Positions 7,933 to 30,454 of a stretch of 64,000 nt of DNA are shown here, piece after piece. The notes under the pieces were generated by a model, which had not been told where the DNA came from, made no database searches, and saw only the letters and a program-made list of their open reading frames with translations. The translations under genes and the position numbers were made by a program. The stretch's first letter is position 1, and the number at the start of each line of letters is the position of its first letter. This DNA comes from Phoronis australis (Eukaryota > Animalia > Phoronida), in assembly GCA_002633005.1 (NCBI GenBank), contig NMRA01000139.1, positions 496,001-560,000 on the forward strand, given 5' to 3'.

Positions 7933-8475
7933 GTTCGTAAAACCACCTCTTTTGTTGTTTTACAGTTACCTCTCAATAGCCCAAGATGATTTCCATCATT
8001 GTAATGACCAATTCCTTTTTCCTAAATCAAGGGAGGCATAAGGGACATGTAATATTGGTTCAGGTCGTCCAAATTCAATTTCTGAACAAAGTTTGGCAAA
8101 TCGATCTCCTGCAACAGTACCCCGGATGCCAACGTGTCCAAGCAACTGTGATACGGTTATATTTTCGATGTTTTAATCAGTGTGAGACAATCGCCGAAAA
8201 GCTTCTTCATAAGAAGCGCCTATTTGGAGCATCACCGTCTCCACTGGGGTTAGTCGAGACAGTGGCATTGTCTAAATCCAGCACTTAGAAACCAAGGAAA
8301 GCTAACTGGGCATGGCGATATGTGTCTGTGATTTATAACACATGGATCGCCAACTCAGCGCACAAAATCTGTGATCTTGCGCACAAGCCGCGAAGTCACT
8401 ATTTACAAGCAGCACCATCGTTGGGTTCAATAACCATAGTACCTCGCTGACCAAGCAAGATTTCACAAGGGGCCA
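7933..8475. other. Probable second-haplotype copy of 6311-6544 joined to 7623-7931 (assembly artefact after single N at 7932)
   Basis: Near-identical direct duplication starting right after an N, with only a few substitutions. It lacks the 1078-bp segment 6545-7622. Confidence 0.8.
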
Positions 8476-8900: not shown

Positions 8901-11900
8901 TTAAAAACGCTGTAGATGGAAAGTCTTTCCTGTTGCTTGCAGTTCTTTTTCAAACGCTGAGTATTCATTCTCAAGTAGTCTCTTTAGAGCCTCTCTCCGC
9001 ACCTGAAGACAAAACGGGCAAAATTTTGAAAAGGTAACCAAATAAAACACCAATTCACATTCAAGAGATACAAGAAAAAATGTGGCAACTGCATAAGCAT
9101 GGGTGCTCCAAGTCATAAGATATATGAGGTAAACAAAACTTGTTAAACGTTATTTAAGACATTTGTTGTCAACAGGTCTGTGCACTTAGACAAACATCAA
9201 GTTCAACTAAGTAAAAGTGCATATTTTATGAAAGTAGAAAGCTTGCAGACTTCCATTTTTCAGTAACTTTATACAAATCTGTCATTGATTGGAATTACCT
9301 GAATATGACAAAATATAAATACACTTTCATAGCAAAACCATCTTATCAATAACATGGCCAAATTTCATTAGATTTAAATGATCAAAATAAAATCATGAAA
9401 ATGCTGCTTCAGTGTCCTAAATTATTTTGTTTTTGTTTTTTTTTTCCAATTCATGACTGTTTTCATAAAATTGTTAATTTTGATAGCCTTTCTGGAAAAG
9501 TGGAAAGTGTTCAAAATAATTCAAAGCAGTTTTGAGAACAGAGCCAAAAGCATAGTATGTAAACATGGTATATAAAAGTTTTTGAAGACATGACATTCTG
9601 AAATTAGTCAAAACTAGAATTTTTACATGCTCCGTCTTATACAACAGAAAAAGCAACATGAGGTGAGTATTTTGAATTGAACTCTCATCCGTCGTGGAGG
9701 TATAAAACAGATTGTATGATTTGCCCAAGTGTTTGGCAAAAGATAGGGCACACTTGCCAACTGTCCCGCTTTTAGAAGCTCTGTCCTGCGACTCGTCACG
9801 GCATCAAATTTTTTCATTTGTTGACACACGTTACACAATTTCTGTCTCATTGCATGTTTCTGTGATTTTGAAAACCATTCCCCCTCTCCCCATTCCATTT
9901 TATTGGCTTGGCTAAAAACAAAATAAACAAAAAGCACTGCTGGTATGTTTTTGCATGTTGTGGTAGATATTTGTCCATTCCGGAATGGCCTGGATTCAGA
10001 TGTCCTGTTTTTTTCATTTTCAAATGTTTGCAACTATGCTCCTGTGTCTAGTCAGGCAAGTTCAGAAGAATTTACAATGCACCTTTAAATTTCCTGCTGA
10101 AATTATAATGAAGCAATAAAAATTAATGGCATTACTGGAATTGCAACTGGCAAACTGAATCAGATCTTAATGCAAAATAATGACTGCCAGCCAATATAGT
10201 CACAACAGCATTCCTTCAAATGCCCCTTCGACCATGCAGCATTGTGGGTAAATACTGCAGAACTACAGAGGGCACTGTGGTATTCCGTGATGCTTTATGT
10301 TTGGTATCAAGTCGCAGAAGCACTACAGAGGGTTACTCACTGCTAAGCATGCCTTGTTTGCTAAACGGGCTTCACCAATTTTTCTGAAGTGTTGCTCCTT
10401 CGCATGTTTGAATCCAAGCTTTAATTCTAATTTTTCTTCCCATATAGAGCGCAGATGGTTAGTTTCCTCTCTGCAACAAGACAAGTAACCGTTAAATTGT
10501 CATGAACGAGGTAATCATGTGACAAGAAATTTTCAGTTTCACAATTTACACGCAAATCCAAAAATAAAGTTTTCTAACCAAAAGAAACAACTGACATCTA
10601 TTAACAACACAAAATGATAATCAAAATCAACATATACAAAAACAATAACCATAGCAAAAGAAATAAAACTTTACAAATTCTTAGTTCTCAAACAGAATTG
10701 AGTCATGGTGCTTCCATTTCGTCAGCTAGCTGAACCCAACCTATTAGGAACTTATGCAAGTTACACTTTTAATTGGGAACTATTTACCCCATCGCATGAT
10801 CCGTAAAGCACCCAGCTTGCTGATAGCATATCTGGCCATGCAACCGACAACAATTTATTGTTGTCCTAAACCAATTACTGTTCATGGTTGGTAAATGACT
10901 AATCCTGTTGCATGCGCATAATTATTTAAGTGTCAAATGCAGCTCTACTACGCACTAAGAAGCAGGTAAACATCAACTGCGCATCACATATGCGTGTAGC
11001 TAGATCCATCCCCCTTTATCCAATATTTTGTTCACTCAACAGAATTTTTTGTTTTAATGATCCACATATGGGCACATGTACATAGCCATCACTTACACAC
11101 ACAGGCGGCTGTGTTGTTGTATTTTATCCCTTCTTGGTATTTCTTAATTCTAAGTTGAATACGCAGCAATGCCTTACCATTTTGTAACAGATAAATTATG
11201 TTGTAGTCTCAATGTAATAAACACGGTATGCAATTTTACAGAAATATACGACATATACCCACATGTGACTAATACCGGACATTGGATCAGATTTATGGGT
11301 ATAGGTGAATGGGCCTAAATACACACATAGACTAGCTGTACTGTATCTTGGCCAGGGACAATGAAAATCATGTTCTAAAGTCAAAATGGCCAGCCTTGTG
11401 GTATGACTATACGCAACATTTTCCCTCTGGGAATTAATGAGCATGAAAAATAAACCAACTTTGGAATCACCAATTTCATCCGTACAATAAAGAACAGGCG
11501 TGGTACACTGCACACAACTTATAAATACACATGTGAAAATTTCTAAGCTACTCAACCTCATCCAAGATTTTCTTATCTCCTGTTCTCGTGGATCTAAATC
11601 ACAGCTACAACAAGTGAACTATGCCAATTAAGAACCAATCTAATGACACAATGAGCCCGAAACAAATCACACACCATTATAACTTATTAAGCTGGACACT
11701 AAACTTGTAACTAAACAAGCCTGATACAAGCTATTGTACAATATTGTACAATATTGTACCATATTGTATTCACTATTATGCACTATTATATCGCAACACC
11801 GAGCAGTACCAGCTTGTTTTAAAATATTACCTAAAGCATTTAATTGTCAAAGGTCTGGAAATATTTGTGGTTGTATTGAGCAATAAAGTATTTTACAACA

Positions 11901-14308
11901 CAACCACACATATTTCCAGGAAAATTATAAATACATTTGTTTATTAAATAAAAGAATCACAAACATCAAAAAGAGCTGGTGCATCTGTGGACAAAGAGAG
12001 CACAGCCAAAACATAATGGTCACAGCGCCCGTTCTAGTAAACTGTTCATTGTTGGTCTTTAACTTGAGATTTGCAATATGCTTGAGGCAGCAACAAAGCT
12101 ACTTTCCACCACAAAATCCAAGTTTTCATCTAGACCACTTAACAGTATGGTGTTGGTATCTAACTGTTCATCACTCAGTTAGAAGTGAATTGAGGGGTTT
12201 GAAAGAACCAACAGTTCATTATTGCTGGACACCAGGCTCAAAAATTTGACTAATGTCATGGCATGTTATTTTATGCCCCACACATTTTCTCAAGAAACAA
12301 AGAACAATTAGTTCCTACAAACCCAGAAACCACTTCCTGTCTGAGTAAGGAGCCAGTTGAGTCTAGTTTTATGGCGGCAAGTGTCCAAAATCAAAAGTTC
12401 GCTCCCAGGATGGGAACACAGGTTTATAGCTACTTGTTTTGATTGTTTCACTTTCCAATGAAGTATTTACTAGGAATGGCTAAGTACAGTTACTGCCTTC
12501 ACTCTGCGCTAGTTCTTACAATGTTTTAAGTCAAACTTTAGTTGTCAAAATAGCCACGATTCTAATCCAACACAGAATTCATGCAGGAAAACTTCACTTC
12601 TTTGTATAAACCCAATGAGCATATATTCGACAGGCTTGTCTGGAGACAACGCTCAGGTAAGGTGAACTTAGACGAATCTGAAGTCAAAAACTTAAGACGA
12701 ATTTAAGATTCCTGTTTTGAAATGGATTTAAGATAATTTTTAGTTTCAAATTAAAATTTGTCTTAATCACTTTTCTATGAATTGACAACCTGCCCTTCAA
12801 GGTTTTATATATGTTCATAAGTAGTAAAATTGTGTGTTGCCGTTATACCACACAAAATGACCATACAAAATGACCACACAAAATGACCATACAAAATGAC
12901 CACACAAAATGACCACACAAAATGACCATACAAAATGACCATACAAAATGACCACACAAAATGACCATACAAAATGACCATACAAAATGACCATACAAAA
13001 TGACCACACAAAATGACCATACAAAATGACCATACAAAATGACCATACAAAATGACCATACAAAATGACCATACAAAATGACCATACAAAATGACCANNN
13101 NNNNNNNNNNNNNNNNNNNNNNNNNNNNNNNNNNNNNNNNNNNNNNNNNNNNNNNNNNNNNNNNNNNNNNNNNNNNNNNNNNNNNNNNNNNNNNNNNNNN
13201 NNNNNNNNNNNNNNNNNNNNNNNNNNNNNNNNNNNNNNNNNNNNNNNNNNNNNNNNNNNNNNNNNNNNNNNNNNNNNNNNNNNNNNNNNNNNNNNNNNNN
13301 NNNNNNNNNNNNNNNNNNNNNNNNNNNNNNNNNNNNNNNNNNNNNNNNNNNNNNNNNNNNNNNNNNNNNNNNNNNNNNNNNNNNNNNNNNNNNNNNNNNN
13401 NNNNNNNNNNNNNNNNNNNNNNNNNNNNNNNNNNNNNNNNNNNNNNNNNNNNNNNNNNNNNNNNNNNNNNNNNNNNNNNNNNNNNNNNNNNNNNNNNNNN
13501 NNNNNNNNNNNNNNNNNNNNNNNNNNNNNNNNNNNNNNNNNNNNNNNNNNNNNNNNNNNNNNNNNNNNNNNNNNNNNNNNNGGGGGGGGGGGGGGGGCCT
13601 GGGCCCCCCTCTAAATCTGCCTATGTAACATACAAAATCCTGGCAATCTGTTCCTAGTGGTTGTACTGTTTACTAGCAATGAATGCTCAGTGCAAACAGG
13701 CTAGAGTCTTATCAGCATTCTGGTTAGCAAGCTATGGTGCATTTGGCTGGATTCTTTATGAAAGCCAGGTTCCAACATTACTGCACAACACAATTGCTAC
13801 TGACACCGATTGTGTGGCAGCCCGCTTCGTAAGCAAGGGTTTGTTAATGTGAACTGAACACAAAGGTGTTTTAATGCTATACTGAGTCACTTCTCATGAG
13901 GAACTTGAGCTCTATTCTAGTAATTTTGAATGATTTTGATTTCACATGTTGCGACATATAGCACTATGAACACAAACATGCTAGGCCTGCCATCAGTGCT
14001 GGGGGTATCAAACATACTAGCCCGTTAGAATCATCAGAGAACATTAAAAGTGACTACTGCCACTTTAAGTGTAAGCCTCAGGTACCAAACGGCAGAGTTG
14101 TTCAGGCATCCTGAAGAAGATTATTGATTGAATCATCATCGATTACCCGGCGGCTCAATAACAACGTCAAGGGACAGCGATTATATTGATAAAATGTAAA
14201 CTGGAATGTTATCGATACCTTTACTCTGTCCTTCTGTCTGCTTAACGCTTCTGTCAGACTTTTATTGTTAGTCATTCGCTCATATCGCAATGTTGTTGCT
14301 TCGCTCAT
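8901..14308 (-). CDS. CFAP141: Cilia- and flagella-associated protein 141 (C1orf189 family)
   Basis: Exons 14308-14219 (MSEATTLRYER...KDRVK), 10470-10341 (EETNHLRSIWEEKLE...EARLANKACLA) and 9002-8901 (VRREALKRLLENEYSAFEKELQATGKTFHLQRF*), all with GT-AG sites. The C-terminus matches the recalled CFAP141 pattern VRxAAL...E...ELxxxGKAFYxxRF. A small 3n+2 exon is needed between exons 1 and 2 and is not firmly located. AATAAA on the minus strand at 8759-8764. Confidence 0.85.
12848..13097. repeat. 13-bp minisatellite (ccayacaaaatga)n running into a gap
   Basis: About 19 tandem copies are visible. Confidence 0.95.
13098..13581. other. Assembly gap (N run)
   Basis: Run of N. Confidence 0.99.
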
Positions 14309-14871
14309 TTTGAATCCGATCCACGCTGAACTCTTACCAGTGCGAACTGTTGACTTCCTGGTTGCTAAGAACTACTCACTCCCACTGTGACGCTTTCAGC
14401 TTACGCAATCAGTGAAAGAGCACCTATTCGATCACAGGAAAAGTATAGACTAATCGAAATTAGAATTTTAATTCTACTAATTCAATCAACTATATACGAA
14501 ATAATTTAAAAATATCGAAAAATTAAGACCAAAACGAAAGAAATGAGTCAACAGATATTAATGCGCTCTAGATGATATTTTTGCCGAAAGATGACGCTAA
14601 ATACAAGGAAAACGAAAATAGTGAATTTATAACTCAATTCTCGGCATGAGATATGACTACAATGACTGTTAACACTGCTTAAATCATGTTACGAAATATT
14701 TACTTAATATCATAAATATTTTGTCCTATACGTCACATTTTTGATGGGTGAGTACGACTACATGATGTTACAACGTTCAGTTTCATCAACATATTGATCA
14801 CACTTTTTGTATCTAAAAATAAAATTTCTGATAAGAAAACGTCACGTTGGGAATTTTTAGCTGACTTCAAG
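14309..14871. promoter_or_regulatory. Short divergent (head-to-head) promoter region with an RFX X-box-like site
   Basis: The two ATGs are 563 bp apart. GTTGCTAAGAAC at 14361-14372 resembles the X-box typical of ciliary genes and lies about 50 bp upstream of the CFAP141 ATG. An ETS-like ACTTCCTG is adjacent at 14353-14360. Confidence 0.5.
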
Positions 14872-17800
14872 ATGTCGGTTGAGAGAGATCCAACATTTTG
14901 CAACCTTTGTAATATTCCTCTGTCTTCGTTTGCAGTGGCTACCCAACATTATGCAGGCTTAAAACACTCGAAAAAGGAGAGGGTAAGAGTCCAACGAAGG
15001 GGTGGATTGCATAAAGAAATTCCCGGGAAATCCCCGTTCCGTTCATACAGTATTGTCGAGTAAAATCCAATCCTCCGACTTTTCTAATTCTGTGTCTGGC
15101 CTCACAACTGGCAGTTATTGTCTACCATTGTTCAAACAGTTACTAAAACCTTGTCTTCAATGGGTGCCAGAGAACCGTTCGACTGGCAAAGTCACATCTA
15201 TTTTAGCTAATTTTTGTAAAGATTTCAGTTCTTGGCCTTGGGGTAGAATCTCAGAAGCCAAACAGTTAGAAAAACACTAATTTTAGTCCTTGATACATCA
15301 ATTTTTAGCCAAAAATGTAATAGCCGTTAAGCCATCGCTGAAGCTTAATTAAGACCATAGAACTTCAGGGATAGAGTTCTATGGGCAGATGAACTTGATC
15401 GGTGGTCCTCTAATTCCGAATCTGCTAAATTAAAACTGAGTTCTAGTGTTTATGTTATTTTCATCTCTATGGGAAAGTCTTTTTTATTGTCTGGATTATC
15501 ATGGAAGCCATTGATTGGTACGGAAATCTTGGAGAAAATCTCACTCAATAAATATGCCTTCAATCTCACTCAGTGATGATCAGCATNAGCCGAGATCACC
15601 CGACTCGGGGATCAAACCCGCGACCCCCATAAAACCGGCAAGCGTGCTAACCATTCAGCTAATAGGCAATTGCCCGTTAGCGAGTAGCTAACAGAGGCTC
15701 ATATAATTCACCGGAAGCACATCTACAACATTCCCCCCTTTCCTACGGAACGGGCACGCGACAGGAAGGTGAACACCAGGATGTCGCGCATACAGGTCAT
15801 CAACGTCCCTTGGTACCTTTACCACCACAACACAGGTGAACACAAGGTCGTCTCTCATACAGGTCCTTGACTCCTGGAACCTTCCACGCGCGCTGTCCCA
15901 AGGTCCGTGGGTACTAGTTGGCAGTGCTTCATCGGTAGATCATCCGTTTGCCAACTACGCCATTTGTAGTAACTTAAAATAGCCGAGATCACCCGACTCG
16001 GGGATCAAACCCGCGACCCCCATAAAACCGGCAAGCGTGCTAACCATTCAGCTAATAGGCAATTGCCCGTTAGCGAGTAGCTAACAGAGGCTCATATAAT
16101 TCACCGGAAGCACATCTACAACAGAACCGTTTGACTGGCAAAGTCACATCTATTTTAGCTAATTTTTGTAAAGATTTCAGTTCTTGGGGTAGAATCTCAG
16201 AAGCCAAACAGTTAGAAAAACATTAATTTTAGTCCTTGATACATCAATTTTTAGCCAAAAATGTAATAGCCGTTAAAAAAGCCATCGCTGAAGCTTAATT
16301 AAGACCATAGAACTTCAGGGCTAGAGTTCTATGGGCAGATGAACTTGATCGGTGGTCCCCTAATTCCGAATCTGCTAAATTAAAACTGAGTTCTAGTGTT
16401 TATGTTATTTTCATCTTTATGGGAAAGTCTTTTTTATTGTCTGGATTATCATGGAAGCCATTGATTGGTACGGAAATCTTGGAGAAAATCTCACTCAATA
16501 AATATGCCCTCAATCTCACTCAGTGTAGCCCATGATGGCAATCTCCCGTTCAGTGATTTTACCAGATGCAAAAGGTTGTGAGGGCGTGGTAACATCTAGC
16601 TTCTTTGTTAACTGCCAAGCACAGTATTTTGTCAGGTATGACAACAGGCAGGTCAATTATCTACCAGGCTTATTACAGACCACGTGTAAACACAATCAAA
16701 CCCAGAGGGAATTGGTACTTTCGGAGAGAGTAGATTGTCGTAACTTCAGTTGTAGTTGGGCGATTTTGCCCATTCAAAAACTAAACATGATCAGCATTTG
16801 ACAAAGATTTCAGAAATGCTATTGGTTTATGTTCAAATATATTATATAACTTAACTTCTATTTTAACAGCACAGCCCAGTCAGGCTAGATATTATTTGAG
16901 ATTAGAGCAATTATCGAACAAAAGAGAGCTGGCCTTCCAACCATCAATGTCAGAATGGAGTTAATCAGTCATGTAAGATATTGGCTACAGGGGTGTTCTT
17001 CCCAACTTGCTGTTGGGCTATAGAAACGAACAAGTTGGGAGCAACGGGAACACGCGTAATATACAGAGTCACCGCCCGACATGGGATTGATCAAGTTAAT
17101 GTGTGCTGAGCAACATGGATCACTACACCTAGGCCATTATTTTGTAATGTGTAGTCACAATGAGAATGATCTGTTGATGTCTTTTTAGGCACTCAGATCC
17201 CTGCAGATGAACAATGGACCTGCCACCCATGAAGCTCACCTCAGATCCCTGCAGATGAACAATGGACCTGCCACCCATGAAGCTCACCTCAGATCCCTGC
17301 AGATGAACAATGGACCTGCCACCCATGAAGCTCACTCAAAGTCACAAGGTATTGTAGAAATGTTGTTTAGTCTTCATTGACAGCGAATTTATACAAAGTC
17401 AAGTTTTTATACCCCATTTAAGTGCCATCTTTTGTTCAGTTGTGGAACCACAGGACTGACGGTTTCATGTTAGACCTGGTTACACATATCTGTACTGAAT
17501 TGCAATAAATTCTGTCCCGTTTGATCTGCACATAACGTGGAATTGTCGTGAGGACTTGACAGGGACCTCAGGGGTCTCACGCTCCATTGGCTTATCTACA
17601 TTAATTTGAAAGGGCTTTGTCCAGTCACATGTTGTGTGTCATAAAAGAGATGATGATACCTGCATCTGATGTGGCTAGTAGAACTACTCTCATCTATCAC
17701 ATTGGTGTAGACTCACATTAGAACTGTGGTTTTCTGTTGAGCCCAGACCGTCCGGAGTTGCACCATATACCAACTCCAGACCGTCTCTCACGACGATTTA

Positions 17801-20800
17801 GTGTTATGTATTGCCTTGTTTGTGGTGCGAGTATTTGACATGTATTATACCATACTCTCGTTGCATCCCCTTTAAAGAAGTATACGCACCATTGCAGTGC
17901 TGTCAAGACATATCTTGATCTGTTGTGAAATCTCCGACGGCAACACTCGTGACACAATGAGAAAGTGAATAAAGAACGCTGCTTCAAAGTACGGATCTAG
18001 CTATTCGAAAGCAATTAGCTTTAACATGAAGTTATTGTTATTATTATTGGCATTCCATTTTGGGTGTCATCTCTGTTGTCCAATATTTTTAGCTGCGGTG
18101 AGTGAAAGCCCTAATCATCATGAGAGGGAGTACTTCTTTGATCATACAACTTGGAGGGGAATGTGCAATGTGTGCAACGTAGAGCTGACATCAGTAAAAC
18201 TAAAAGATCAACATCTTAGTGGTAAAAGCCACAAGAAGAATCTTTTAAGGCAAGTACGGTAATTCTCCACATTCTTTGAACATTCTCCTTATTTTGCGTG
18301 CCAAAAATTGCCAGCAATATTAAATACTCACTCTCACATTTAATTGTTTACTTCAAGCAAAAACATAAAGTAGCCAAACCAAAATTTAAATTAGCATCTT
18401 TGCTGCACTAGTGAGGGGACATATTTTTGAGTTAGTAAGGGGACTGTTGTGGTCAATACTGTAATTTTCCAGTTTGAACACTGTCCTTGTTTTTCACACC
18501 AAAAATGGTCATCAGTATGAAATATTCATTTCTTTGTGTATTTCATGTGAAAAGTCGCAAAATAGCAAAACCAAAATTTTGATTAATTTAGCATTTTTGC
18601 AAGCTTAGTAAAAGGACACATTTTTGGGTTAAAGAGGGGTCACTTGAGGTCAAAGCTTTGTCAGTATCAATTTCAATTGATAATTATTTAACATAATTTT
18701 TTCCACAGACCTACCGGACAGGTATGGTAACAATTTCCAATAGAAAATGTGTGTCAGACTTTTTTAGTTTAACTCCAACTGATCAACATATTTGCAATTT
18801 TCATGTTTGTCATTAGTTTCAAAGCTATTAATTAGAATTGTGCAAGTTTTTCAAGATTCTTGTTTGAGATTAAAAAACCTGAACATCTGTTCAACATTTC
18901 CTTAATAATTTCACTAAAAAGATTTAGTATGCAGATATCCTCGACTCATGTCATTAACAAAATCAGTGGCATTGGTTTACTGAAGTTTCTCTTGAATGCA
19001 TGTTTTATGAACTGAGCCTGACATTAAGTTATGGAATTCCCTGTGCACCATTTTTGAATTTTAGTGTTGGCCAATGCCTCTTCTTGACCTCCCGAGGGTT
19101 TGTATGCTCTTCAAAATAACATGTCATTTTTTGGTAAGCAAAAATTTGTAACCAACTTTGTGAGAATAAAAGCTCCAATTCAATTTTTGTTTTGAGCCAG
19201 CTTTAAGCAGGGCAAATTGCAGTATTAAGTAAGTAATATCTACGTTTTATGAGGAAAAACACTGCGTATACGATTTTCATTCAAAACGAGGTGGTTCAGA
19301 TATTGGGAGTAGTCTTGCCTGAAACATGATGGTAAATGTAAGGTCAACAAAATATGTTTTTTAATTGATAGTATTAATTTTGGTATATGTTTAAATTTAC
19401 AGGTGGTCAGCTAGTCAAGTCAGTACGTCAACACCACCTGAGATGTTGCAACTTCACAATGTAAGTGAAGACCATCAAAAAAAAGCCACAGGTTCCATGC
19501 TGCCAGTTGATTCAACTCAGTGGCTGATGTGCGAAGTTTGTGATGTAAAGTGTAACTCGGCGGAACATCTTGAAAATCACAAACGAGGAGCGCCCCACTC
19601 AAAAATGGTTAGTCGACTGGCGGCAGGACAAGTTTTTAATGCAACTGGGAGTCAGGAATTAGCTGGCAGAGCAGAGACAATATATCGATGTGTTGAAAAA
19701 AGTCAACAGTCATTAATTGGTCAACATGTTTCCTCTTCAACATCACCTGATGTGCAGAGACTGCACACTCCTGCGCTCCTTTCATCTAAGAGTTGTGTAG
19801 GAAGTAGCGACTCACCCCTGCAGTGCACAGGTTCCATGCTGCCAATGGATTCAACTCAATGGCTGTTGTGCGAAGTTTGTGATGTAAAGTGTAACTCGGC
19901 CGAAAATCTGGAAAATCACAAACGAGGAGCGCCCCACATGAAAATGTTGTGCCGACTTTTGGCAAGACAAGATTCTAATGCAACGGAGAGAGCAGAGATA
20001 TCACATCAATTCAGTAAACGAGATCAGCTGGGAGGAAGTTATCATGACGCTGTCTCACCAACGCCACCTAGTGCTCAACTGCCCACTCCTGTACTCCAGT
20101 CACCAAACAGTCATGAAGGTAGTAGTGACACCTGGTGTGATGTTTGCAAACTCCAATTCAATGGCCCACAGCCAGCTGCGCAGCACTACCAGTCTGCAAA
20201 GCACTTGCAGAAGTTGCAGCTTAAAGAAAGTGGGGGGAAACGTGATGCCGTGTTTTGTGATGTGTGCGCAATTTATGTTGACACTCATGAGATGTTGGAG
20301 TTGCATAAGAACAGTGATAAGCACAAAAGAAAAGCTGCTAGCTCTTTCCTGCCTGTAGATTCAACACAGTGGTATAATTGTGAACTATGCAATGTAAAAT
20401 GCAACTCAGCAGAACATCTGGAAAAGCACAAGAATGGGACAGCACACTCAAAAATGTTGGGTCAAATGTTGGCAATGCAATATCCTTATGGAACTGAAAA
20501 CCATGAACAGAATGATAGAGCAGAGGCGGTGAATCAGAACACTATGAGAAGTCAGCAGAGGACAAGTTATCCCGTTGCTTCCTTATCAAAATGCTCTGCT
20601 GAGCAGCAAGTGCAATCTCCTGTGCTCCAGTCATCTGACACTAATGAAGAAAGTAGCGACACCTGGTGTCACATTTGTAAACTAGCCTTTACAGGCCTGT
20701 GGCCAGCAGCAGAGCATTACCAGTCTGCGAAACACAAACAAAAATTGCAGCTGAAGAAAAATGGGGGAAAACCTGATGCAGTATTTTGTGAAGTGTGTGC

Positions 20801-23800
20801 AATTTATGTTGATACAATCCCAATGTTAGAGGTACACAACAGAAGTGTGAAGCATCAAAGAAAACTTGCTGGCCCCACACCACCAGTTGATCGAACTCAG
20901 TGGCATCTGTGTGAGCTGTGTGATGTGAAATGTAACTCTGCAGAGCTCTTGGAAAGTCACAAGAAAGGAGAGTCACACATGAAAAGGTTGCAACAACTGT
21001 TGGCAAAAGAGGATTTCCCTGCACCTTTAAACCCTGGTGTGGATGGTGAAAAAGAAGTCTTGTATCAGCGCAATGAAGAGAGCCAGCAGGTTGCATCTCG
21101 CCTGATCCCGGCACAAGCTTTGGAAGTGGTAGAGAATAATGACTTGGAGAAGCTTTCTACGTAATAAGTTTATAATATCAACCAGTATCACTACAGACTT
21201 CAAAATGAAGTGTTGCCACTATGTCGCAATGTTGATTGGAAAATGTAAAATGTAGAACTCATTTAAATTAATTTACAAATCCTACCCAGTCACGTTTAAT
21301 GATATATCAAGCTACGGAAAGAGACATGAAAATAACATCTCGCCAGCTTATTAGCAAGTTTATCGTTGACTGTAATGCATTGCACAAGATAACTTGGCCT
21401 CACAAATTATATTCGTAGCTTAATCACGATTGCTTATTTAAAAGGTTATTTTCGGTTTTCAATTGGTGATGATGAAACAGTGTGCAATCCAGATGTGTAG
21501 AGGGCCTTCTATTGCTTCTTTGATTTTTATTTTGAATAAACAGAGTACCTTATGTTTAACATTGCAGATCTCACTATCAGACTACACCATCTTCTCACAG
21601 AACTGAGCTCTTAGTCAGCAGTAATGCCAGAGTCACTGCGCCATTGATGCCATCAGATGGTGGAGCAAGTCTGGTCACCTGTGAAGTAAATCATAATGTT
21701 GATAGACAGGAAAAGAATGCACGTGAATCCGCTATAAAACTAGACATTGTAGATCCTCTGTTGGACTCTATCAAGTCTATTATTAAACCAGATCCTCTGT
21801 TGAATTTGTCAACCGAGCAGGAAGCAATGGAGGCGTCAGTGAAACCTGGAGAAAGTCAAGGAAGAACTCAGTTGTCTTCACCAGAATCCTTTGTGGATGA
21901 ATATCCAGAAGATGAACAATTGGACTCGTCTAGAACATTGGTGAGTGAAGAAGTCAAAGTATGTTCGCCGAGAGATTCTTCTGAAAGCCGTTTAGATTCC
22001 TCCAAAATGCTGAATAAGGTAAATTATAAAGAGGTTCAAACGAATTTGTCAAAGATTTCGGAAAATGAAAGCATCAAAGGGAGACTAGTGGAAGAAACAA
22101 AGTCACCCGTGAATGGAAGTAGCTCAAGGAGTCAGTTAGAGTCTATCAAGGCATCTGTAAGTGAAGAGGCCTGCAGAGAACGTAGCTTTGAGTCTTCTGA
22201 GAGGCAAAACTTGGAACATGGCTCCTATACCAAAATAAGTAGAGCTATGGCAAACCTGAGTATTAATGAGGCATCAAGTTTGGAAACAGTAACAGAGGGA
22301 CTGAAACGTACTTCTCAAGAAGATGATCTTACTCAAAGTCCATCTTCGCCGAGAGACATGCTGGATTCACGTGAAGAACTCCTCTCTCAGCACTGTGGGG
22401 TTGCAAGCTGCAGCCGCCCAACAAGAAATGAAACCGATGACTGCAAAATGTCTTCAAACAAACTAGCAGCAGGTTTTGAACTGAATACAGACAACCAGTG
22501 CACAGATGACCCAGAGACCAGTCTCACCTCTACAGATGAGCCAGAGGCCAGTCTCACCTCTACAGAGGAGAATGATATAGTTACTGATTGTTCAAATAGT
22601 GTAGTGGCCACTTCTGCTCAGGCTTCCCAAACTCCATTGGATCCAACACCAGATGGCAGTGTGCCACCACTGGTTAAAGACCAGCAATGCGACGACCCTT
22701 TTCAAAGTCTTATCCGTACCTTTCCTCGAGACTACCAAGTTGAAGTCTTTGAGAAGGTTTTTGCTACCGCTGGGGATTCTGTCCTGTTTTTACCTACTGG
22801 TAAGTATGACACATGAGGAATTCTAGCTTATTGGGCTTGGCTATTCAAAACCCATAGGTGGCAGTAAACCAATTATCTTTTCAGCCAGGACCATAAACCC
22901 GTTGTTGCGCTGTGTTTACTTTCACAGACCAACTGGGGTAGTCGAATGGTTGAGAGTAGGGTTCACAAAGAACTACTTTTACTGACCTTGCAAGTCAATT
23001 TCAAAAAGCCTATTGTGTGTGAACGAGATCCATTATTTGCTATGGTCTGCAAAATTCTAAGCCACTAATGGGACCAGTTACTTCCTCCAAACCCAACCTG
23101 CGTTTGTGAATGTTGAAATCGTCAGTGTGCATCACCTTCAAAGCAACGAGATTACTCTTCGTATGTAGTCGCTTACTTACTCTGTGGTTGGCAGCCTTTT
23201 TCGGCAAAGTCTGTGCTCCAACTCTCCACATGATAGTTAAGACTGGAATACTTAGCACAAAGATTAACATTGCCATCTCCGTTTAGAAATGTATGGTACA
23301 AAGCAAATCGCTTAACATGTTATTTTCAATGCCCAATACACATCAGTTTATGTTTTTGGAAGAATTGGCGTGTCTAATAAGTCGTGCATTGTTAGTAACA
23401 AAAGTTGTTGTAAAAAGACTCGCAATCAAAACCAGATTCCAACTTACCTTGATTCTGATTATAATTTTATGATCTTAAAATATTTTCTTGATGAACGAAT
23501 TTCCTTTAATACAAAGTAAATTTTGGATCGCCAAACTTTATATGAGTGTGGCAAAATAAGATTTTTGTGAAGGAACAAGTGCACCGAATGGAATAGTATT
23601 ATCTCTGAACATTATCGTAGTTAAGTAAAAATCCAGCTTATGTTGACTGAAGCACATCATACATGTAGGTCTTACTAATCTGATGAAGATAGTGTCACTT
23701 CTCAACCGGATTCATCACAGTTTTAATTCATCTTGAAAAAATTTTTTATAATTTTTTATAGCTTGCCTTTTAGTATTTGCCTACTACGAGTCGGCAAAAC

Positions 23801-26800
23801 AAATTTGGGTTCACCGAATTATTTTTCTGTTACAACCGCCTACTGAAACAGAGGTACCTCTGGAAAAATGCATAATTTTCTTTGGTTACTCAAAAGTAAA
23901 CTCTAATTAAATAAATGATTGAATTAAACTCTTTTGAAAACAAATAAGCAAATTAATTTTCGTCGTACTATGGCAGTTATTTTTTTCAACACTCTTTGAT
24001 TATATTTTCCTGTTAAACAATTATCATATGCCGGTGTAAGTATAAAAAAATGATTTTGAGTACTTAAGATTTTAACATTTTGGCTTCTAAACAAAAAGGT
24101 ACACAGTTAATTTTCTTTTATGTCTTATTTTGATACCCATCATGTATTCTGTAGAATGACAAACACATTTAAGAGATGACATACTTTGTTTTTGAACTTT
24201 TTAGCACAACCAGCGTCAGACATTGGACCTCAAAAGCGATGACTCAATAGTTTAAAACTAACCATTATTGAAGTGCTCGCGTCCAGTACAGCTAAACACA
24301 AGAATATTTTAAACCGAGTATTCTAATGTTCATGCACTCTAGTTACTCTCATACACCTGTATGTAGCCTACATTCATAAAGGGATTTATGTGAGGGCTTG
24401 CCCCTCAGATGCACCAAATGAAAAACGCTACTGTTATGCCATCTGCAGGCCTTGAACATATTTCTTTCGAAAACCGATTGACTCCACTTTTGGCATCCGT
24501 CAACCACTAGTTGCCCCACCTTGGCTGCAAACTTCCTAATTGTTCCCCATAAGCAATGGTCACATGTCCATGTGGGAGACCGGGTCACTTTCTGAGACAA
24601 GTTGCTTTCTGGATAGGAATGTATGGTGTCAGAACACCTTGTTTTGTGCGACAATAGACATTATTATTCATCCAGATGAATGACAAGTTGCAAAAAAAAA
24701 TAAAATCTCATTTTTTGGAATTTAGCATAAAAATAAATTTCCTCATGTTGCAGAGTCGCTTGGCTTTTTCTACTGGGGATTGATGACTGACTGGTTCCCG
24801 TGAAAATTTCATCACCCTGTGCTGGTGTTCATTCATCGACAACAACTTAAGGCCCCTGGACCATGAGTCAGACAACTTAAATCTGATACCTGTATGTCTA
24901 TTCAAAGGGAGTTTTGCATTAAAAATTCCGCATGGATACTGGCAGAGATTTTTAACATACGGGACAGCAACAGTTGTGGAAAGATTGTGCGCTCCTTGCA
25001 TTCCTCGTGAGGCCGAGGGAGTGAGGCTCTGCAAACAGACCAACCAGGGTAACCACAGTTATTCAGAGTCCCTGTCAAATGTTCTTTCTTTGCACTGACC
25101 ACCTCTGTGCCAAATCTGTTTGCACCACTGCCAAAGTTTTCAGTGCAGAGAAACAGCATTTGACAGAAGCTTCATGTTTTTGCTCACTTACAAAGTCTCA
25201 CACTCATCCTCATATAAGAGTGCAGAACATTATCCTCCACTGTGAATGTCATTTTATGTGAAAAATATTTGAGGATCTACGTAGTTTTTACTATAACGTT
25301 TGAATAGCGCACGCGCTCAGGGGTAATGCACCCGTGCGGGTGAACCTAGGTGCATGCCGAGGACAAACCTCTGCCTGGTGATGTCAGTGGATGTGGTGTA
25401 TGAAGATATCACGTGACTGTGACTTTTGTGAATATTCGTATATTGGTCAGACTGGTCAGAAGGCACATGGCTCTGACCGAGTGCAGCATAAATGCCACTG
25501 GTTTAAACTCTGCAGTGTAACAGGGGACACTCGCTTGAGACAGCAGACATAAGGATGATGGACAGAGAAAGTTCTTGGTTTGAGCGGAGGTTTCAGAGAG
25601 CTGTCTAGGTTAAAGCCAAGAATCCCTCTTGGAATAGACACAGAGGAGTCAAATTTAAGTTGTCTAACTTGTGCTTCCTTATCTTGTTGTCTATGAAAAG
25701 TGTCAGAGAGCAGTCAGTCATCAACATCCAGTAGGAGGCAGGTGGCTATGCAATTTCAAGAATTTTATTTTATAGTAAGTAGCATAAGTTGTAATTAAAA
25801 TGTTTCTTTTAACTTGTTATGTGGTGCTATCAGAAATATAAGCAAACTGCCTTGCCTGTTTTTGCCATACATTCAAAGCTATGTTACATTTGTTGACTGA
25901 ACCATTGCTTCTCAAATTTAGGAACCGGCAAAACTATTGTTACCACCATGATCGTGTCACATATGTTACGCAACAACCCCGCCCATCAAGTCCTCATTCT
26001 GGCTGCCGGCCTTCCAGTCGTCTTTAAATATGTTGAAGCTATGAATAGGGAAATTGGGAACTTAGAAATTCAAAGGTGAGTATAGTCAGATTCAGTCAGT
26101 TTTCACCAGTGAGCAATCAAATTAGGACTGTTTTGAACTTATGTTTATGTGATACATAAGTTTTCTACTATTGCTATCGTTTGATGAAACGATACCTTTT
26201 TCATACTTACACATGTGTTAATTTGAGTTGTTATTTCACAGAATTGTCATGTTTAAATCAAAATTGAATGTGACTAGCATGTCCGCTCATTGCACCTTCC
26301 ATGCTGTTGTGTGAAACTACTCTATCAATTTAACCGCTCAGTATTCACTTACCAGACGAGTTCTGTTTTCATCACCTGACTGATTTTACGACTGCGCAAA
26401 AGCTTGATATCCTGTCAGCATGCCATCTTTTTGATCGCATCACGTGACCTAACAAATACAAGTCCGAAAAAGTTTCTGCCCGCGACCGGGACTCGAACCC
26501 AGGACCTTCTGCTAACTGTGTAGATGCTCTAGCCACTGAGTCATCGGGATGGGACCACTGGTCAAATCCAATCGGACATCTTACCCTTGATCTCCATTTT
26601 GGTCAAAAAGATGGTGTGCTGACAGGACAAAGTATTCGCAACATATTTCCATGCCTCACTAAAAAGATATATTTATACAATGAGTATATTGTTTAAAGTT
26701 TAAAGGAAGCTCGGTGAGTGGTCAGTTCTCTGTTTTCCATGAAGAATCTCAAAATGTTCACTCCCAATAACGTCTAGTCCCTGTCTGACTCTAGCTTAGA

Positions 26801-28688
26801 CTGAACTCACGAGGCAAGATGCAGTTGATACAATAGCATTTCTGAAATCTTCATCATATGGTGATCATGTTTAGTTTTTGAATCGCCAAAATCGCCCTAC
26901 TGCAACCGAAGTTATGACAATCTATTCTTCCCGAATACACCAATTCACTCTGGGTTTGACTGTGTTCACAGGTGGTCTGAAATAAGCCTGGTAGAAAACT
27001 GACCTGCCTTTTGTTATAACAGACAAAAGACTGTATTTGGCAGTTAATAAAGAAGCTAGATGTTATCACGCACTCACCCCCCCCCACGTCTGGTTAAGTC
27101 ACTGAACAGGAAAACGCTGTTATGTCGCCACTTCGTTGCTTTTTGTCGCTTCCCAAGTATAGCGATGAAGTGGCTAATCTTTTTTTTCTAACAGAACGGA
27201 CTGCGCTGGTATAAGGCGGGAGAGAAAACTAATCATTGCTGGCATGTGTACAGGGCTAAAGAGTGTTTGTGAAGAACCTATTCGGGCCCAGGACATCATG
27301 GTGACCACACCAGGTATGGTTTAAAGTTGGAGTCCTCTTCAATTCTAGAGATGAGACATTTTTATCTAGTTCAAATGGTATGTGCCCATGCCAACACAGT
27401 TCATTCCAGGTGTTATTTATGGGAAATTTGGTCTCTGTACTCAGATTTCCCTGTAAACATACATTATTAAAAAGTCTGAAATGTAGTTGCTTGCACTTGT
27501 GTTTCAGATCACTTCAACCATTTAGCTAGCAGCGAACAAACTGCATGGCAGGCGTTCTCACTGGTGATTCTTCTCGATGCTGAGACATATTTGACTGACA
27601 ATCAGCTTGAATTTCTGTTAAAACGACATCACAACAGTGTTCCGTCAGATATCCGCCCTAAGATCGTCGCATTCGCTGGTCTTCCTTGCGACCTTTGCAC
27701 TGGCAGTCAACCTGGACAATTCCTAAAAGATCTGAAACAAGCTCTAGGAAACTGTGATGTCATTGGTGTCGGCAAAGAGGGTAAAAGAGAGATGGGAACG
27801 TTCTTGCTGTCAAAGAAACCAGACTTCACCGTGTCTGATCGTGACAAAAGTGAGAAGAATTTGAGAAACGTTTTGAATGAATATCTCGTAGCTTCCTATT
27901 CCCATTTGGCAAAGAAGATTGGAGTAATTCCTTGTACGGAAGTTGAAGAAGAAGTGTCCGTGTTGCTTTCCATTGTGGACAATCCTGACTGGGCATTTGA
28001 CTCTATGGGAGATATGGAGAAATCTCTTCTTCTTCACTGTGGTGAAGTTGCTTCTTCTTTATCGTTACTTCGGAACTTCGGTATCGGCTTAGCTCTCGAT
28101 GCCTTAAGGGACATCTTTCATGAAGATACTGCAAATGTAAAGCCTTTGCTTAAGCAGGACTTTCCTTTGTATCAACAAGTTGTAAAATTCATCTCTGGAA
28201 TGGTGGGGAACTCTGACACTACTGATCAATGCAGTGGCCTCCTGGAGCAGACCCGTGAGCTGACTAAAAGCAATGGAAGAGAGAATCTTGTGCTGCTTCT
28301 GGTGGAAAATCCTGTTGTCGCTGCCCAATTTGGAAAAAAAATGAAAGAGTCTAACGAGCGTGAAGGAGATAAAAGTCACTGTATTGACTTCATGGTTGCA
28401 GTCGACAGCCACGAGTCACCTGCCTCGAGTGGTGTCATTATTGCAACGTGTGCGCGTTACTTAAATGGAACTGTTTTGCGAAAATGCAAGCTGATATCAG
28501 TTGTCAATCCACGACATGCCAAGCACTACTTGGCTCAGGTTAGAGGCCATGATATCAATAATAATTGTGCCGTGAAAATCACTTGTAACGATGACGATAC
28601 AATTAGTTTACTGGAAAGGTTTCTGGAAGCAGAGGAAACATTAGTCAAAGCTGATGATTTAGAAGCTTTGATAAGTCACACTGAATGA
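14872..28688 (+). CDS. Multi-zinc-finger (10 JAZ/matrin-type C2H2) protein fused to a degenerate RIG-I/Dicer-class DExD/H helicase, ~1626 aa
   Basis: Eight phase-consistent GT-AG exons: 14872-14982, 17189-17348, 18093-18258, 19403-21160, 21568-22799, 25922-26075, 27195-27313, 27508-28688 (4881 nt, no internal stop). Fingers: 1 in exon 1, 1 in exon 3, 8 in exon 4. Helicase motifs: FPRDYQVE (Q), LPTG|TGKT (Walker A across the exon 5/6 junction), DIMVTTP, FSLVILLDAE (II), PKIVAFAG (III), LVLLLVEN (IV), VIIATC...GTVLRKCKLI (V), LAQVRG (VI). Confidence 0.85.
15588..16123 (-). mobile_element. TRIM (miniature non-autonomous LTR retrotransposon) with tRNA-like sequence in its LTRs
   Basis: LTR 15965-16123 (159 bp, TG...CA). 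The second LTR, 15588-15730, is identical but truncated by the N. On the minus strand, PBS TGGCGTAGTTGGCA (15949-15962, tRNA-Ser type) lies 2 nt after the 5' LTR and PPT AGGAAAGGGGGGAA (15731-15744) abuts the 3' LTR. The 234-bp interior is non-coding. Confidence 0.85.
16124..16525. other. Probable second-haplotype copy of 15172-15575
   Basis: Near-identical direct duplication with a few SNPs and small indels, on either side of the single N at 15587. Confidence 0.75.
16545..16822. repeat. Interspersed repeat; inverted copy at 26833-27110
   Basis: Co-linear reverse-complement similarity, also visible as the similar spurious ORFs 16532..16801+ and 26854..27087-. Confidence 0.8.
16850..17050. 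repeat. Interspersed repeat; inverted copy at ~37963-38155
   Basis: Blocks ttcccaacttg-tgttgggctata, aacaagttgggagcaacggg, ccaaccatcaa-g-cagaatggagttaat and gagattagagcaattat recur as reverse complements at 37963-38155. Confidence 0.75.
17192..17335 (+). repeat. 48-bp coding tandem repeat x3 (LRSLQMNNGPATHEAH) forming most of exon 2
   Basis: Three perfect copies between acceptor ctttttag (17188) and donor g|gtattg (17348). Confidence 0.9.
26410..26627 (-). mobile_element. TIR-bounded element containing a tRNA-like sequence (26477-26549, minus strand)
   Basis: TIRs tcctgtcagcatgccatctttttgatc / ggtcaaaaagatggtgtgctgacagga. Inside on the minus strand: A-box TGACTCAGTGGCTAGAGC, an arm with an AGT-centred loop, B-box GGTTCGAGTCCC, and a T5 run a few nt downstream. 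Confidence 0.7.
26833..27110. repeat. Interspersed repeat, inverted partner of 16545-16822
   Basis: Reverse-complement similarity over about 280 bp. Confidence 0.8.
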
Positions 28689-29370
28689 AAACGTTAGGTG
28701 CAATATTATTATCTATTTAGTAGCTTTAACACTTTAAGTTGGTGCACCAGTAGAGCTCTTGTGATTGTCACTCGGTGACAAGTGGGACATTATTTATAAT
28801 ATTTATAAAATTATTCCCAAAGACTGATCCATGTTGTGGTTGAAGTATATTGACTGAGGGACACAACGTTTTCATTGAATGCAATAGAACTGGGCAGCGG
28901 TTCTAATACTTTTAACAAAGTTGAACTCAAAATTCGTTTTGTCCTTTTCTATTCTAGCTCTGTACGAACTCAAGATAAGTTTGTAGGAGCTGTAATACAA
29001 GGATTACCAAATGGGAATTGGGACTAGAAACCATATGTACTTGAGCCTCAGACTAGCTACTAGCCACTTATCTTGATATCACCCAAACGAGGAATAGATA
29101 ATGCCTATAACCACTTCAAGTTCCTTTTAGTAAGATTAGACTCCGGCCCAAGGTGTTCGTCTTTTTCCTGCTCTATGAAGTGCAATCTGATCTGATTCTA
29201 TGATAAGGTTATGAAATTGCGCATATATCCAGAACTGAACAGTTACGCTTGGATCTCTTGTGTTTACTTCTGTAGGCTTTTGATACCAATCATACTCTTG
29301 TTGTGTTATGCAATAGCAAAGTTATGAAGTTGACTAAAGGTTGTCTAGTTGTGCCGAGTGCTTCAAATTA

Positions 29371-29656
29371 TGGTTGGCCAAATGGGTGAACGTTGCATAA
29401 ATAAATTACGTGGGTAAGTTAATTCTCGTTAGAGGTGTAAAGCAATTATTTAGAGGTGTAAAGTAATTATTTGTGGCTTAATGTAATTATTTAGAGTTAT
29501 AAAGTAATTATTTGTGGCGTAATGTAATTATTTACAGTTATAAAGTAATTATTTGTGGCGTAAAGTAACTGGCGTAAAGTAAATACTTTAATCCTCTAAC
29601 AAGAATTAACTTACACAGTAATTGGCCTGCACAACATTCACCTATTTGGCCAACCA
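29371..29656. mobile_element. MITE with long TIRs, TA flanks and an internal ~22-bp tandem array
   Basis: TA|tggttggccaaatgggtgaacgttg ... caacattcacctatttggccaacca|TA. Inner inverted block gttaattctcgttagagg / cctctaacaagaattaac; internal repeats of taaagtaattattt. Confidence 0.8.
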
Positions 29657-30454
29657 TATGAAATAGATGAACTCACCAGAGGATACCTTAATTGTATCAA
29701 ATAGGTACTGGTTAGTAGATTCCAAATAAACAGTTTTGTCCTTTATTTATTACTTAGACATCCTCATGCACAGATGTGTTTGTAGAAAACGTTATCGACT
29801 TATAAAAATAATTATTGCTTTTATTATTAAGTGTAAGGGCAAATGTAACTTACTAGATTTTAAAAACGACTTTGATGATTACACACGACCTTTATGTTAC
29901 CACTGCTGAGTACAACGTAGATGACTTACATCTAGATGTACCTGTGGTGGGAAGTCACATTAAGGTGATGTTTGTTTTATAATCCAGTTGTTGTAGATGT
30001 ATTCATGTACATGTAACTGTTGTTTATGGCTTGAATTTTCATCATCTGATGATGGCTGTGCTATACTTGAGGGATTTGTGTAAAGGTATTAATTTTGCCT
30101 GTTAGCACATATTAATTGCTTAGAGCCACTACCAGGTCATTTAATTTTTTAAAGGAAATAACGCTTTTTGATTGGTGTCAACCCTTATGGGATTGGACCA
30201 AATTTATGACTCCCAACCATGATGTTAATTATAATGACTCTGGTCAACAACAGGCCATGGATAATGGAATTTGGCAGGCGCTACAGATGTAGTTATTTGT
30301 GTGCTTCAGTCTATGTTCTCCTTCTAAATAAAGACTAGTTGTAATGTGCTTAGCTCTCATGAAATAACACTTTACAAAGACCAGAACAGTTTATGTAACG
30401 CTTGTGGGAAAGCCTCAATTTCCCGCTCCAGTACTGCACTATGAATAGGATCGA

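What the first reader, a model, noticed from the sequence alone, without database searches (positions are those of the whole stretch)
14872..28688. Ten dsRNA-binding-class zinc fingers fused to a RIG-I/Dicer-type helicase: candidate non-canonical dsRNA sensor or regulator
Seen: the ORF track shows scattered pieces, but eight exons splice in phase into one ~1626-aa protein: 10 C-x2-C-x12-H-x5-H fingers, a ~390-aa acidic Ser/Glu linker, then a helicase starting PRDYQ...LPTGTGKT and ending at the stop. Known: this finger type (JAZ/ZNF346, ZNF385, ZMAT3) binds dsRNA. The PRxYQxE...PTGxGKT start and the long spacer between the RecA lobes match the RLR/Dicer/FANCM helicase group. RLRs normally use N-terminal CARDs and a C-terminal CTD, and Dicers carry PAZ/RNase III. 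None of these is visible here. Inference: a finger array may replace the CTD/dsRBD as RNA-recognition module in an invertebrate antiviral or RNA-silencing factor. I do not recognise this architecture from characterised proteins.
Basis: partly seen in the sequence, partly recalled or inferred. Interest (0 to 1): 0.88.

Follow-up and report, generated by a model that had tools for sequence, protein, structure and literature searches.

The report
Zinc-finger RIG-I-like helicase, catalytically eroded
RNA reads join ten zinc fingers of a type known to bind double-stranded RNA to a RIG-I/Dicer-like helicase that has lost its catalytic motifs; it is a degenerate member of a widespread, apparently unstudied invertebrate family of finger-helicases and likely binds RNA as a regulator rather than working as an ATP-driven sensor.

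Summary
Eight GT-AG exons give 1626 aa with ten C-x2-C-x12-H-x5-H fingers. The C-terminus has a RIG-I/DRH-1/Dicer helicase fold and no CARD, CTD, PAZ or RNase III.

Two corrections. (1) The architecture is not unique. Finger-plus-helicase proteins without a CTD occur in molluscs, a brachiopod, a hemichordate, a coral and a flatworm, labelled uncharacterised or misnamed 'Dicer-like'. Ten literature searches, read mostly as listings, showed no description of them. (2) This copy is a likely pseudo-ATPase. All 35 complete relatives keep DExH and motif III; here motifs II, III, V and VI are broken while the Q motif and Walker A are intact, on a branch about five times the median length.

Best reading: a multivalent dsRNA binder carrying a dead helicase scaffold, regulating rather than sensing. 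RNA binding and any antiviral role are untested. The larger result is the family: a candidate third animal branch of RLR/Dicer-type helicases.

The parts
14872..14982 (+). Exon 1 (finger 1 at 14899); may extend to an acceptor at 14860/14861
   Evidence: junction reads 3+4; alternative start
14744..14747 (+). Candidate ATG-G micro-exon adding 5 residues in frame (untested)
   Evidence: sequence only
17189..17348 (+). Exon 2: three exact 48-nt (16-aa) tandem repeats
   Evidence: junction to exon 3 in 6 reads
18093..18258 (+). Exon 3 (finger 2 at 18164)
   Evidence: its 3' junction was not listed
19403..21160 (+). Exon 4: fingers 3-10 (starts 19530, 19869, 20136, 20256, 20379, 20667, 20787, 20910); fingers 5-7 and 8-10 are a duplicated triplet
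   Evidence: best PDB sequence match Xenopus ZFa 1zu1, E 6.6e-5
21568..22799 (+). Exon 5: acidic Ser/Glu linker, then Q motif (22724-22738) and first half of Walker A
   Evidence: junctions 2+4 and 3+3 reads
25922..26075 (+). Exon 6: rest of Walker A (intact), degenerate motif Ia (25996-26016)
27195..27313 (+). Exon 7: motif Ib; skipped in 2 reads of X1
27508..28688 (+). Exon 8: broken motif II (27564-27587), III (27669-27686), Hel2i, Hel2 with broken IV, V and VI (28533-28556), C-terminal helix, stop; no CTD
28689..29730 (+). Probable 3' UTR; AATAAA at 29400 and 29725
   Evidence: sense-strand depth continues to about 30 kb

Best explanation
This is an expressed, spliced gene for ten JAZ/zf-met-type fingers, an acidic linker and an RLR/Dicer-type helicase fold whose hydrolysis motifs are broken, and it likely works as a multivalent double-stranded-RNA binder with an ATPase-dead scaffold that would modulate, not initiate, dsRNA sensing. 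Shown: the exon joins (6 of 7), the fingers, the membership of the helicase in a finger-helicase family, and the motif losses. Inferred: (1) the fingers bind the backbone of long dsRNA with avidity, as ZNF346/JAZ and ZFa fingers do; (2) the helicase may still bind ATP or ADP through its intact Q motif and Walker A but cannot hydrolyse it or clamp and move on RNA; (3) the folded domain is kept as a protein-interaction or spacing module; (4) the protein would coat or condense dsRNA and so compete with or assist the intact finger-helicase, RLRs, Dicer or PKR-like sensors, much as LGP2 modulates its relatives.
For: Junction reads. Helicase region scores 172 bits over family-HMM positions 9-551 of 563; best of 500 shuffles 4.3 bits. 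Family members keep Walker A, DExH, motif III and the EEG-type motif V in 35 of 35 and a full motif VI in 32 of 35; the window keeps only Walker A. It retains 12 of 14 near-invariant columns in the Q/Walker A block but 31 of 79 elsewhere (Fisher p 0.0025), where six sampled relatives keep 65-79 of 79. The DECH glutamate positions the water and motif VI contacts the gamma-phosphate in an ancestral Dicer helicase (PMC12146746, passages). The frame stays open over about 510 aa at 25% identity or less, with a branch of 2.96 against a median of 0.54, which argues for long maintenance. The AF2 model (pLDDT 79) matches RIG-I, DRH-1, LGP2 and Dicer best. Fingers carry 2-5 K/R around the His pair, family median 4. 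ZNF346 has four fingers with high avidity for dsRNA and modulates PKR (10.64898/2026.06.03.729416, abstract and passages).
Against: No binding, ATPase or induction data. No second degenerate orthologue was found, so conservation of the dead form across species is unshown. The RNA-contact motifs Ia, IV, IVa/b and V are eroded too, and the finger that sits within 70 aa of Walker A in 28 of 32 finger-bearing relatives is missing here (gap 468 aa), so the helicase may do nothing. Listed read differences in exons 4-5 are 20 non-synonymous to 7 synonymous, near the neutral ratio (pN/pS about 0.7-0.9; small, filtered list, mostly linker). No CARD or other signalling domain gives an output route. Fingers of this class also serve nuclear RNA processing (recalled). 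The Q/Walker A block was defined after seeing the alignment. The AF2 model was folded with the family alignment and leans to the family fold; alone it gave pLDDT 35. An intact paralogue in this genome could not be checked.
Confidence: 0.5

Rival explanations
1. The helicase is a passenger: a duplicate of the family gene in slow decay, in which only the finger array (or nothing) is under selection.
For: RNA-binding motifs are eroded along with catalytic ones; near-neutral pN/pS in exons 4-5; exon 7 skipped in 2 reads against 3 with inclusion in X1, which shifts the frame and stops early in exon 8 (and the sequence); a finger-only ORF with similar fingers lies 9 kb upstream.
Against: About 510 codons stay open after roughly 3 changes per site; Q motif and Walker A are selectively kept; no frameshifting indel was listed in exons 2-6.
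Confidence: 0.2
2. The protein binds structured cellular RNA in a housekeeping or germline role (mRNA stability, splicing, small-RNA amplification) rather than in antiviral defence.
For: Among the non-family helicases retrieved, those fused to RNA-dependent RNA polymerases score highest; ZNF346 is nucleolar; expression is low and uneven across three runs whose treatment is unknown.
Against: The closest solved structures are dsRNA sensors; one relative carries an N-terminal Z-alpha domain (P0025, E 1.4e-10); finger number varies from 1 to 13, which resembles fast-changing immune genes (inference).
Confidence: 0.17
3. It is an active ATP-dependent dsRNA sensor or translocase in which fingers replace the CTD.
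For: Intact Q motif and Walker A; whole Hel1-Hel2i-Hel2 fold. This reading fits the intact relatives well.
Against: DExH reads LDAE (or DAET in the other register), motif III reads AGL, and both later arginines of motif VI are replaced. An RNA contig matches the motif II region with 2 differences in 151 letters, so this is not an assembly error.
Confidence: 0.08
4. Finger exons and helicase exons are separate genes, or the helicase is a FANCM/Hef-type DNA translocase.
For: A stop follows the exon 4 donor and an AATAAA lies at 21535. FANCM appears among fold matches (Z 14.4).
Against: Six reads join exon 4 to 5, six join 5 to 6, and the bin covering most of intron 4 has depth 0.2-0.5. A family member matches RLR and Dicer helicases at E 1e-31 to 1e-20 and human FANCM at 1e-12; fold search ranks DRH-1 and RIG-I first (Z 17.6, 17.5).
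Confidence: 0.03

Closest known systems
RIG-I-like receptors (RIG-I, MDA5, LGP2; C. elegans DRH-1)
   Same: Hel1-Hel2i-Hel2 fold with C-terminal helix; best Foldseek match RIG-I E 3.4e-10, best VIA matches DRH-1 Z 17.6 (rmsd 6.4, 377 aligned) and RIG-I Z 17.5 (rmsd 5.9, 349 aligned), tied. LGP2 is the functional analogue of a CARD-less modulator.
   Different: No CARD, no C-terminal CTD (protein ends 49 aa after motif VI), ten N-terminal fingers, and broken motifs II, III, V, VI.
Dicer helicase domain
   Same: Best PDB sequence match of the family is the ancestral Dicer helicase AncD1D2 (E 3.5e-42).
   Different: No DUF283, PAZ, RNase III or dsRBD; public 'dicer-like' names on relatives are misleading.
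Unnamed invertebrate finger-helicase family (e.g. Lingula LOC106154762, Mytilus LOC134685007, Aplysia LOC101845957, Ptychodera, Oculina, Macrostomum)
   Same: Same order of parts: 1-13 identical-spacing fingers, then helicase, ending within 65 aa of motif VI in 32 of 35. The window nests among them.
   Different: Relatives keep the catalytic motifs and mostly a helicase-proximal finger; the window has lost both and is only 22-33% identical in local alignments.
ZNF346/JAZ and Xenopus dsRBP-ZFa
   Same: Finger class, long inter-finger linkers (17-90 aa), basic His-pair helix.
   Different: Those proteins have no helicase (recalled); here ten fingers are fused to one.
Helicase-RdRP fusion proteins
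   Same: Related helicase (69 bits to their HMM against 172 for the finger family); P0029 carries an RLR CTD at its N-terminus in front of the helicase.
   Different: No RdRP here; the slot in front of the helicase holds fingers.

Membership tests
RIG-I-like receptors | Hel1-Hel2i-Hel2 helicase fold | tested here: met
   (model folded with the family alignment; exon 8 only)
RIG-I-like receptors | C-terminal Zn-binding CTD (RIG-I_C-RD), used as the filter in PMC8998645 | tested here: not met
   stop 49 aa after motif VI, UTR-like sequence beyond, no Pfam hit in exon 8
RIG-I-like receptors | N-terminal CARD or other death-fold domain (absent in LGP2) | tested here: not met
   Pfam scans of exons 1, 3-8 show fingers only; exon 2 (53 aa of repeats) was not scanned
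RIG-I-like receptors | Intact DExH, motif III and motif VI | tested here: not met
RIG-I-like receptors | Groups with animal RLRs in a tree | not tested
   no animal RLR sequence was among the stored proteins, so the tree lacks them
RIG-I-like receptors | dsRNA-stimulated ATPase and dsRNA binding | not testable with these tools
   needs biochemistry
Dicer | PAZ and two RNase III domains after the helicase | tested here: not met
   protein ends after the helicase
FANCM/Hef | Helicase closer to FANCM/Hef than to RLR/Dicer | tested here: not met
   family profile: RLR/Dicer E down to 1e-42, Hef 1e-22, FANCM 4e-15; fold Z 14.4 and 14.2 against 17.6
Invertebrate finger-helicase family (unnamed) | C-x2-C-x12-H-x5-H fingers N-terminal to the helicase | tested here: met
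   10 fingers; 32 of 35 relatives have 1-13
Invertebrate finger-helicase family (unnamed) | Helicase sequence belongs to this clade | tested here: met
   172 bits; inside an 18-row clade at 95/96 support, long branch; grouping with the 9 outgroup rows rejected at p-AU 0.035
Invertebrate finger-helicase family (unnamed) | Ends shortly after motif VI, no CTD | tested here: met
   49 aa; 32 of 35 relatives within 65 aa
Invertebrate finger-helicase family (unnamed) | Intact catalytic motifs and helicase-proximal finger | tested here: not met
   hence a degenerate variant
JAZ/ZNF346-type dsRNA-binding fingers | Pfam zf-C2H2_jaz / zf-met above cut-off | tested here: met
   86.9 and 104.9 bits for exon 4, cut-offs 22.6 and 21.2
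JAZ/ZNF346-type dsRNA-binding fingers | Measured dsRNA binding | not testable with these tools
   needs EMSA or pull-down

The most novel reading that the evidence does not exclude
Invertebrates from corals to hemichordates carry a third, undescribed branch of RLR/Dicer-type helicases that reads dsRNA with N-terminal JAZ-type finger arrays (plus Z-alpha in some) instead of a CTD, and acts in antiviral defence or RNA silencing. This gene is its ATPase-dead regulatory paralogue, an independent parallel to LGP2-style control.
Probability: 0.3. Interest if true: 0.85.

Novelty: new variant of a known kind. Interest (0 to 1): 0.68.

Why it matters
Surveys of invertebrate RLRs filter on the CTD (PMC8998645, methods passage), and several molluscs are reported to lack MAVS or canonical RLRs (PMC9334734, PMC11103948, passages). 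A conserved, catalytically intact finger-helicase family that such filters miss is a direct candidate for dsRNA recognition in these animals, and it can be tested in oyster, mussel or sea-anemone systems. This gene adds a naturally ATPase-dead version, useful for separating what the fingers do from what ATP turnover does.

Tried and rejected
Exon 8 alone: no Pfam family at E<=1, no real PDB sequence match, no hit among 7991 longer candidates, single-sequence fold unusable (pLDDT 35). The full HMMER scan gave 4 hits; P0002 is an ankyrin-repeat artefact and was dropped. A metagenome scan with exon 8 found 105 pattern matches and no relative. No genome is held, so paralogues could not be counted. 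The protein atlas gave no answer. No indexed RNA holder was listed; the runs came by species label. The upstream five-finger ORF (3733-5455) was considered as extra 5' exons: it has a phase-compatible GT at 5400, but it also has its own stop and AATAAA (5936, 6103), and a minus-strand CFAP141 gene lies between, so I treat it as a separate gene; no reads were laid there. A 52-row tree did not finish; 30 rows were used, leaving out 22 rows for time and 4 truncated proteins. Literature: ten searches, seen as listings with abstract starts; none named this family. Term look-ups found 'zinc' 0 times in PMC8998645 and PMC8476169, and LOC101845957 0 times in PMC9334734 main text and 4 supplements (supplements may use other ids or be cut). 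PMC2686710, PMC11298590, PMC13650160 and PMC11103948 passages did not describe it. The JAZ-RNA structure paper was not held. Subscription journals and bioRxiv supplements were not searchable. Earlier scan notes held nothing relevant.
Full report
Gene structure. Splicing the eight exons 14872-14982, 17189-17348, 18093-18258, 19403-21160, 21568-22799, 25922-26075, 27195-27313 and 27508-28688 gives canonical borders, matching phases, 1626 aa and ten C-x2-C-x12-H-x5-H fingers. Raw RNA reads of three runs (about 18-19% of each read) and one contig set, all found by species label, were laid on the locus. Exon coverage comes from first mates on the minus strand, which in most stranded libraries means plus-strand RNA. 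Six of seven junctions were listed: J1 7 reads, J2 6, J4 6, J5 6, J6 8, J7 2 plus a contig. J4 links the last finger exon to the linker; J5 splits Walker A. J3 was not listed, but intron 3 is empty at 94% likeness and both neighbours are covered in X1. The 'separate genes' refutation therefore fails, although a single full-length molecule remains an inference from short reads. Run X3 covers mainly exon 8 and the 3' UTR, rising toward the 3' end; 3' bias is the simple reading, a shorter transcript is not excluded.

Fingers. Exon 4 scores far above the cut-offs for zf-met and zf-C2H2_jaz; its only PDB sequence match at E<=0.01 is Xenopus ZFa (1zu1). Spacers are 17-90 aa, fingers 5-7 and 8-10 are a duplicated triplet, and each finger has 2-5 K/R around the His pair, like the 246 fingers of relatives (median 4). 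ZNF346 has four such fingers with high avidity for dsRNA and modulates PKR (10.64898/2026.06.03.729416, abstract and passages). Binding by these fingers is inferred.

Helicase and its family. Exon 8 alone hits no Pfam family. A full HMMER scan gave 4 hits; three are helicases, one a Bulinus protein with a zf-met finger, a DExH helicase and no CTD. Two further searches returned 32 of 7986 and 29 of 7989 scored candidates. From these I kept 35 proteins with Walker A and a complete second lobe; I set aside 4 truncated proteins, those lacking the N-terminal lobe, 9 RdRP fusions, 6 Dicers and P0035. Named sources include many molluscs, Lingula, Ptychodera, Oculina and Macrostomum, labelled uncharacterised, hypothetical, 'dicer-like' or 'RIG-I-like'. 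Of the 35, 32 carry 1-13 fingers of the same spacing and 32 end within 65 aa of motif VI; none lists the RLR CTD among precomputed domains. No vertebrate, arthropod or nematode name appeared, but these word-limited searches are weak evidence of absence. The window's helicase matches an HMM of 15 of them at 172 bits over positions 9-551 of 563 (best shuffle 4.3 bits) and an RdRP-helicase HMM at 69 bits. In a 30-row tree it falls in an 18-row clade of the family (95/96) on a long branch, 2.96 against a median of 0.54; placing it with the nine outgroup rows is rejected at p-AU 0.035, a modest result subject to long-branch effects. The tree has no animal RLR. Family members match RLR and Dicer helicases in the PDB better than FANCM, and an alignment-guided model of exon 8 (pLDDT 79) matches RIG-I, DRH-1, LGP2 and Dicer best; that model leans toward the family fold by construction.

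The copy is catalytically eroded. All 35 relatives keep Walker A, DExH, motif III and the acidic motif V; 32 keep the full motif VI, the three exceptions (P0018-P0020, one named as a coral) lacking the last arginine. The window keeps the Q motif and Walker A, but DExH aligns to LDAE, TAS to AGL, and motif VI loses both later arginines; RNA-contact motifs Ia, IV, IVa/b and V are also altered (motif names and roles partly recalled). It retains 12 of 14 near-invariant columns in the Q/Walker A block and 31 of 79 elsewhere (p 0.0025, block chosen after seeing the alignment). An RNA contig matches the motif II region with 2 differences in 151 letters; the motif VI region is covered by reads at 90% likeness or better but its differences were not all shown. 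The DECH glutamate and motif VI act on the gamma-phosphate in an ancestral Dicer helicase (PMC12146746, passages). Loss of hydrolysis is therefore likely. The helicase-proximal finger found in 28 of 32 finger-bearing relatives is also missing; 468 aa separate the last finger from Walker A.

Mechanism. Best reading (0.5): the finger array binds long dsRNA with avidity; the helicase is a folded, possibly nucleotide-binding, non-hydrolysing scaffold; with no CARD the protein cannot signal by the RLR route and would act by coating or condensing dsRNA and by competing with or helping active sensors, as LGP2 does (PMC8659333, passages). Rivals: a passenger helicase in decay (0.2; listed read differences in exons 4-5 are 20 non-synonymous to 7 synonymous, and exon 7 is skipped in 2 reads); a housekeeping or small-RNA role (0.17; the nearest other helicases retrieved are RdRP fusions, one with an N-terminal RLR CTD); an active sensor (0.08); separate genes or FANCM (0.03).

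Comparison and novelty. It works, at most, like a CARD-less RLR modulator; it is not an RLR (no CTD) and not a Dicer (no RNase III). It is a degenerate member of an unnamed finger-helicase family within the RLR/Dicer-type helicases. One relative adds a Z-alpha domain, consistent with the N-terminal slot serving RNA recognition. Ten searches of the open library, read mostly as listings, and term look-ups in eight papers on RLR, Z-alpha or RdRP evolution and invertebrate immunity showed no description of the family; the 227-gene RLR survey required the CTD and never uses the word 'zinc' in its main text (PMC8998645, passages and section 2.2). Subscription papers and bioRxiv supplements were not searchable, so prior description is possible.

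Verdict. Real and expressed; new variant of a known kind; interest 0.68, carried mainly by the overlooked family and secondarily by this likely pseudo-ATPase.

Noticed in passing
window 3733-5455 (+): A 573-aa exon with five zf-met fingers (E 4e-28), some 17-20 of 27 residues identical to fingers 5 and 8 of the focal gene; ends in a stop with AATAAA at 5936 and 6103. Probably a finger-only paralogue; no helicase exon seen nearby.
   Followed up: partly
window 8901-14308 (-): CFAP141 gene (last exon 8904-9002 matches PF15104, E 2e-6; candidate exons near 11560-11604 and 14219-14308), head-to-head with the focal gene about 440-560 bp apart, suggesting a shared promoter.
   Followed up: partly
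window 22502-22566: 30-nt in-frame tandem repeat in the linker; 6+5 RNA reads show an allele with 60 extra bases.
   Followed up: no
window 26075/27508: Exon 7 skipping in 2 reads of X1; shifts the frame and stops a few codons into the last exon, which would give a finger protein with only Q motif and Walker A (and sequence).
   Followed up: partly
P0025; P0018-P0020: P0025 has an N-terminal Z-alpha domain before its fingers; P0018-P0020 (one named Oculina) lack the last arginine of motif VI, a possible second, milder loss of catalysis.
   Followed up: partly
P0029, P0031: Proteins with RLR CTD, helicase, PH-like domain and RdRP; in P0029 the CTD is at residues 8-104, in front of the helicase.
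   Followed up: no
window 15100-16525 and 6330-8470: Local duplications flanking single-N gaps (15587, 7932), likely haplotype-merge artefacts of a draft assembly; introns also hold abundant dispersed repeats that attract reads from both strands.
   Followed up: no
window 34451-36631 (-): 726-codon Thr/Ser-rich open frame with PTTTTT repeats, mucin-like, no Pfam hit.
   Followed up: no
window 52652-53017 (+): Open frame that by recall resembles the C-terminus of hydroxylysine kinase; no Pfam hit at E<=0.001.
   Followed up: no
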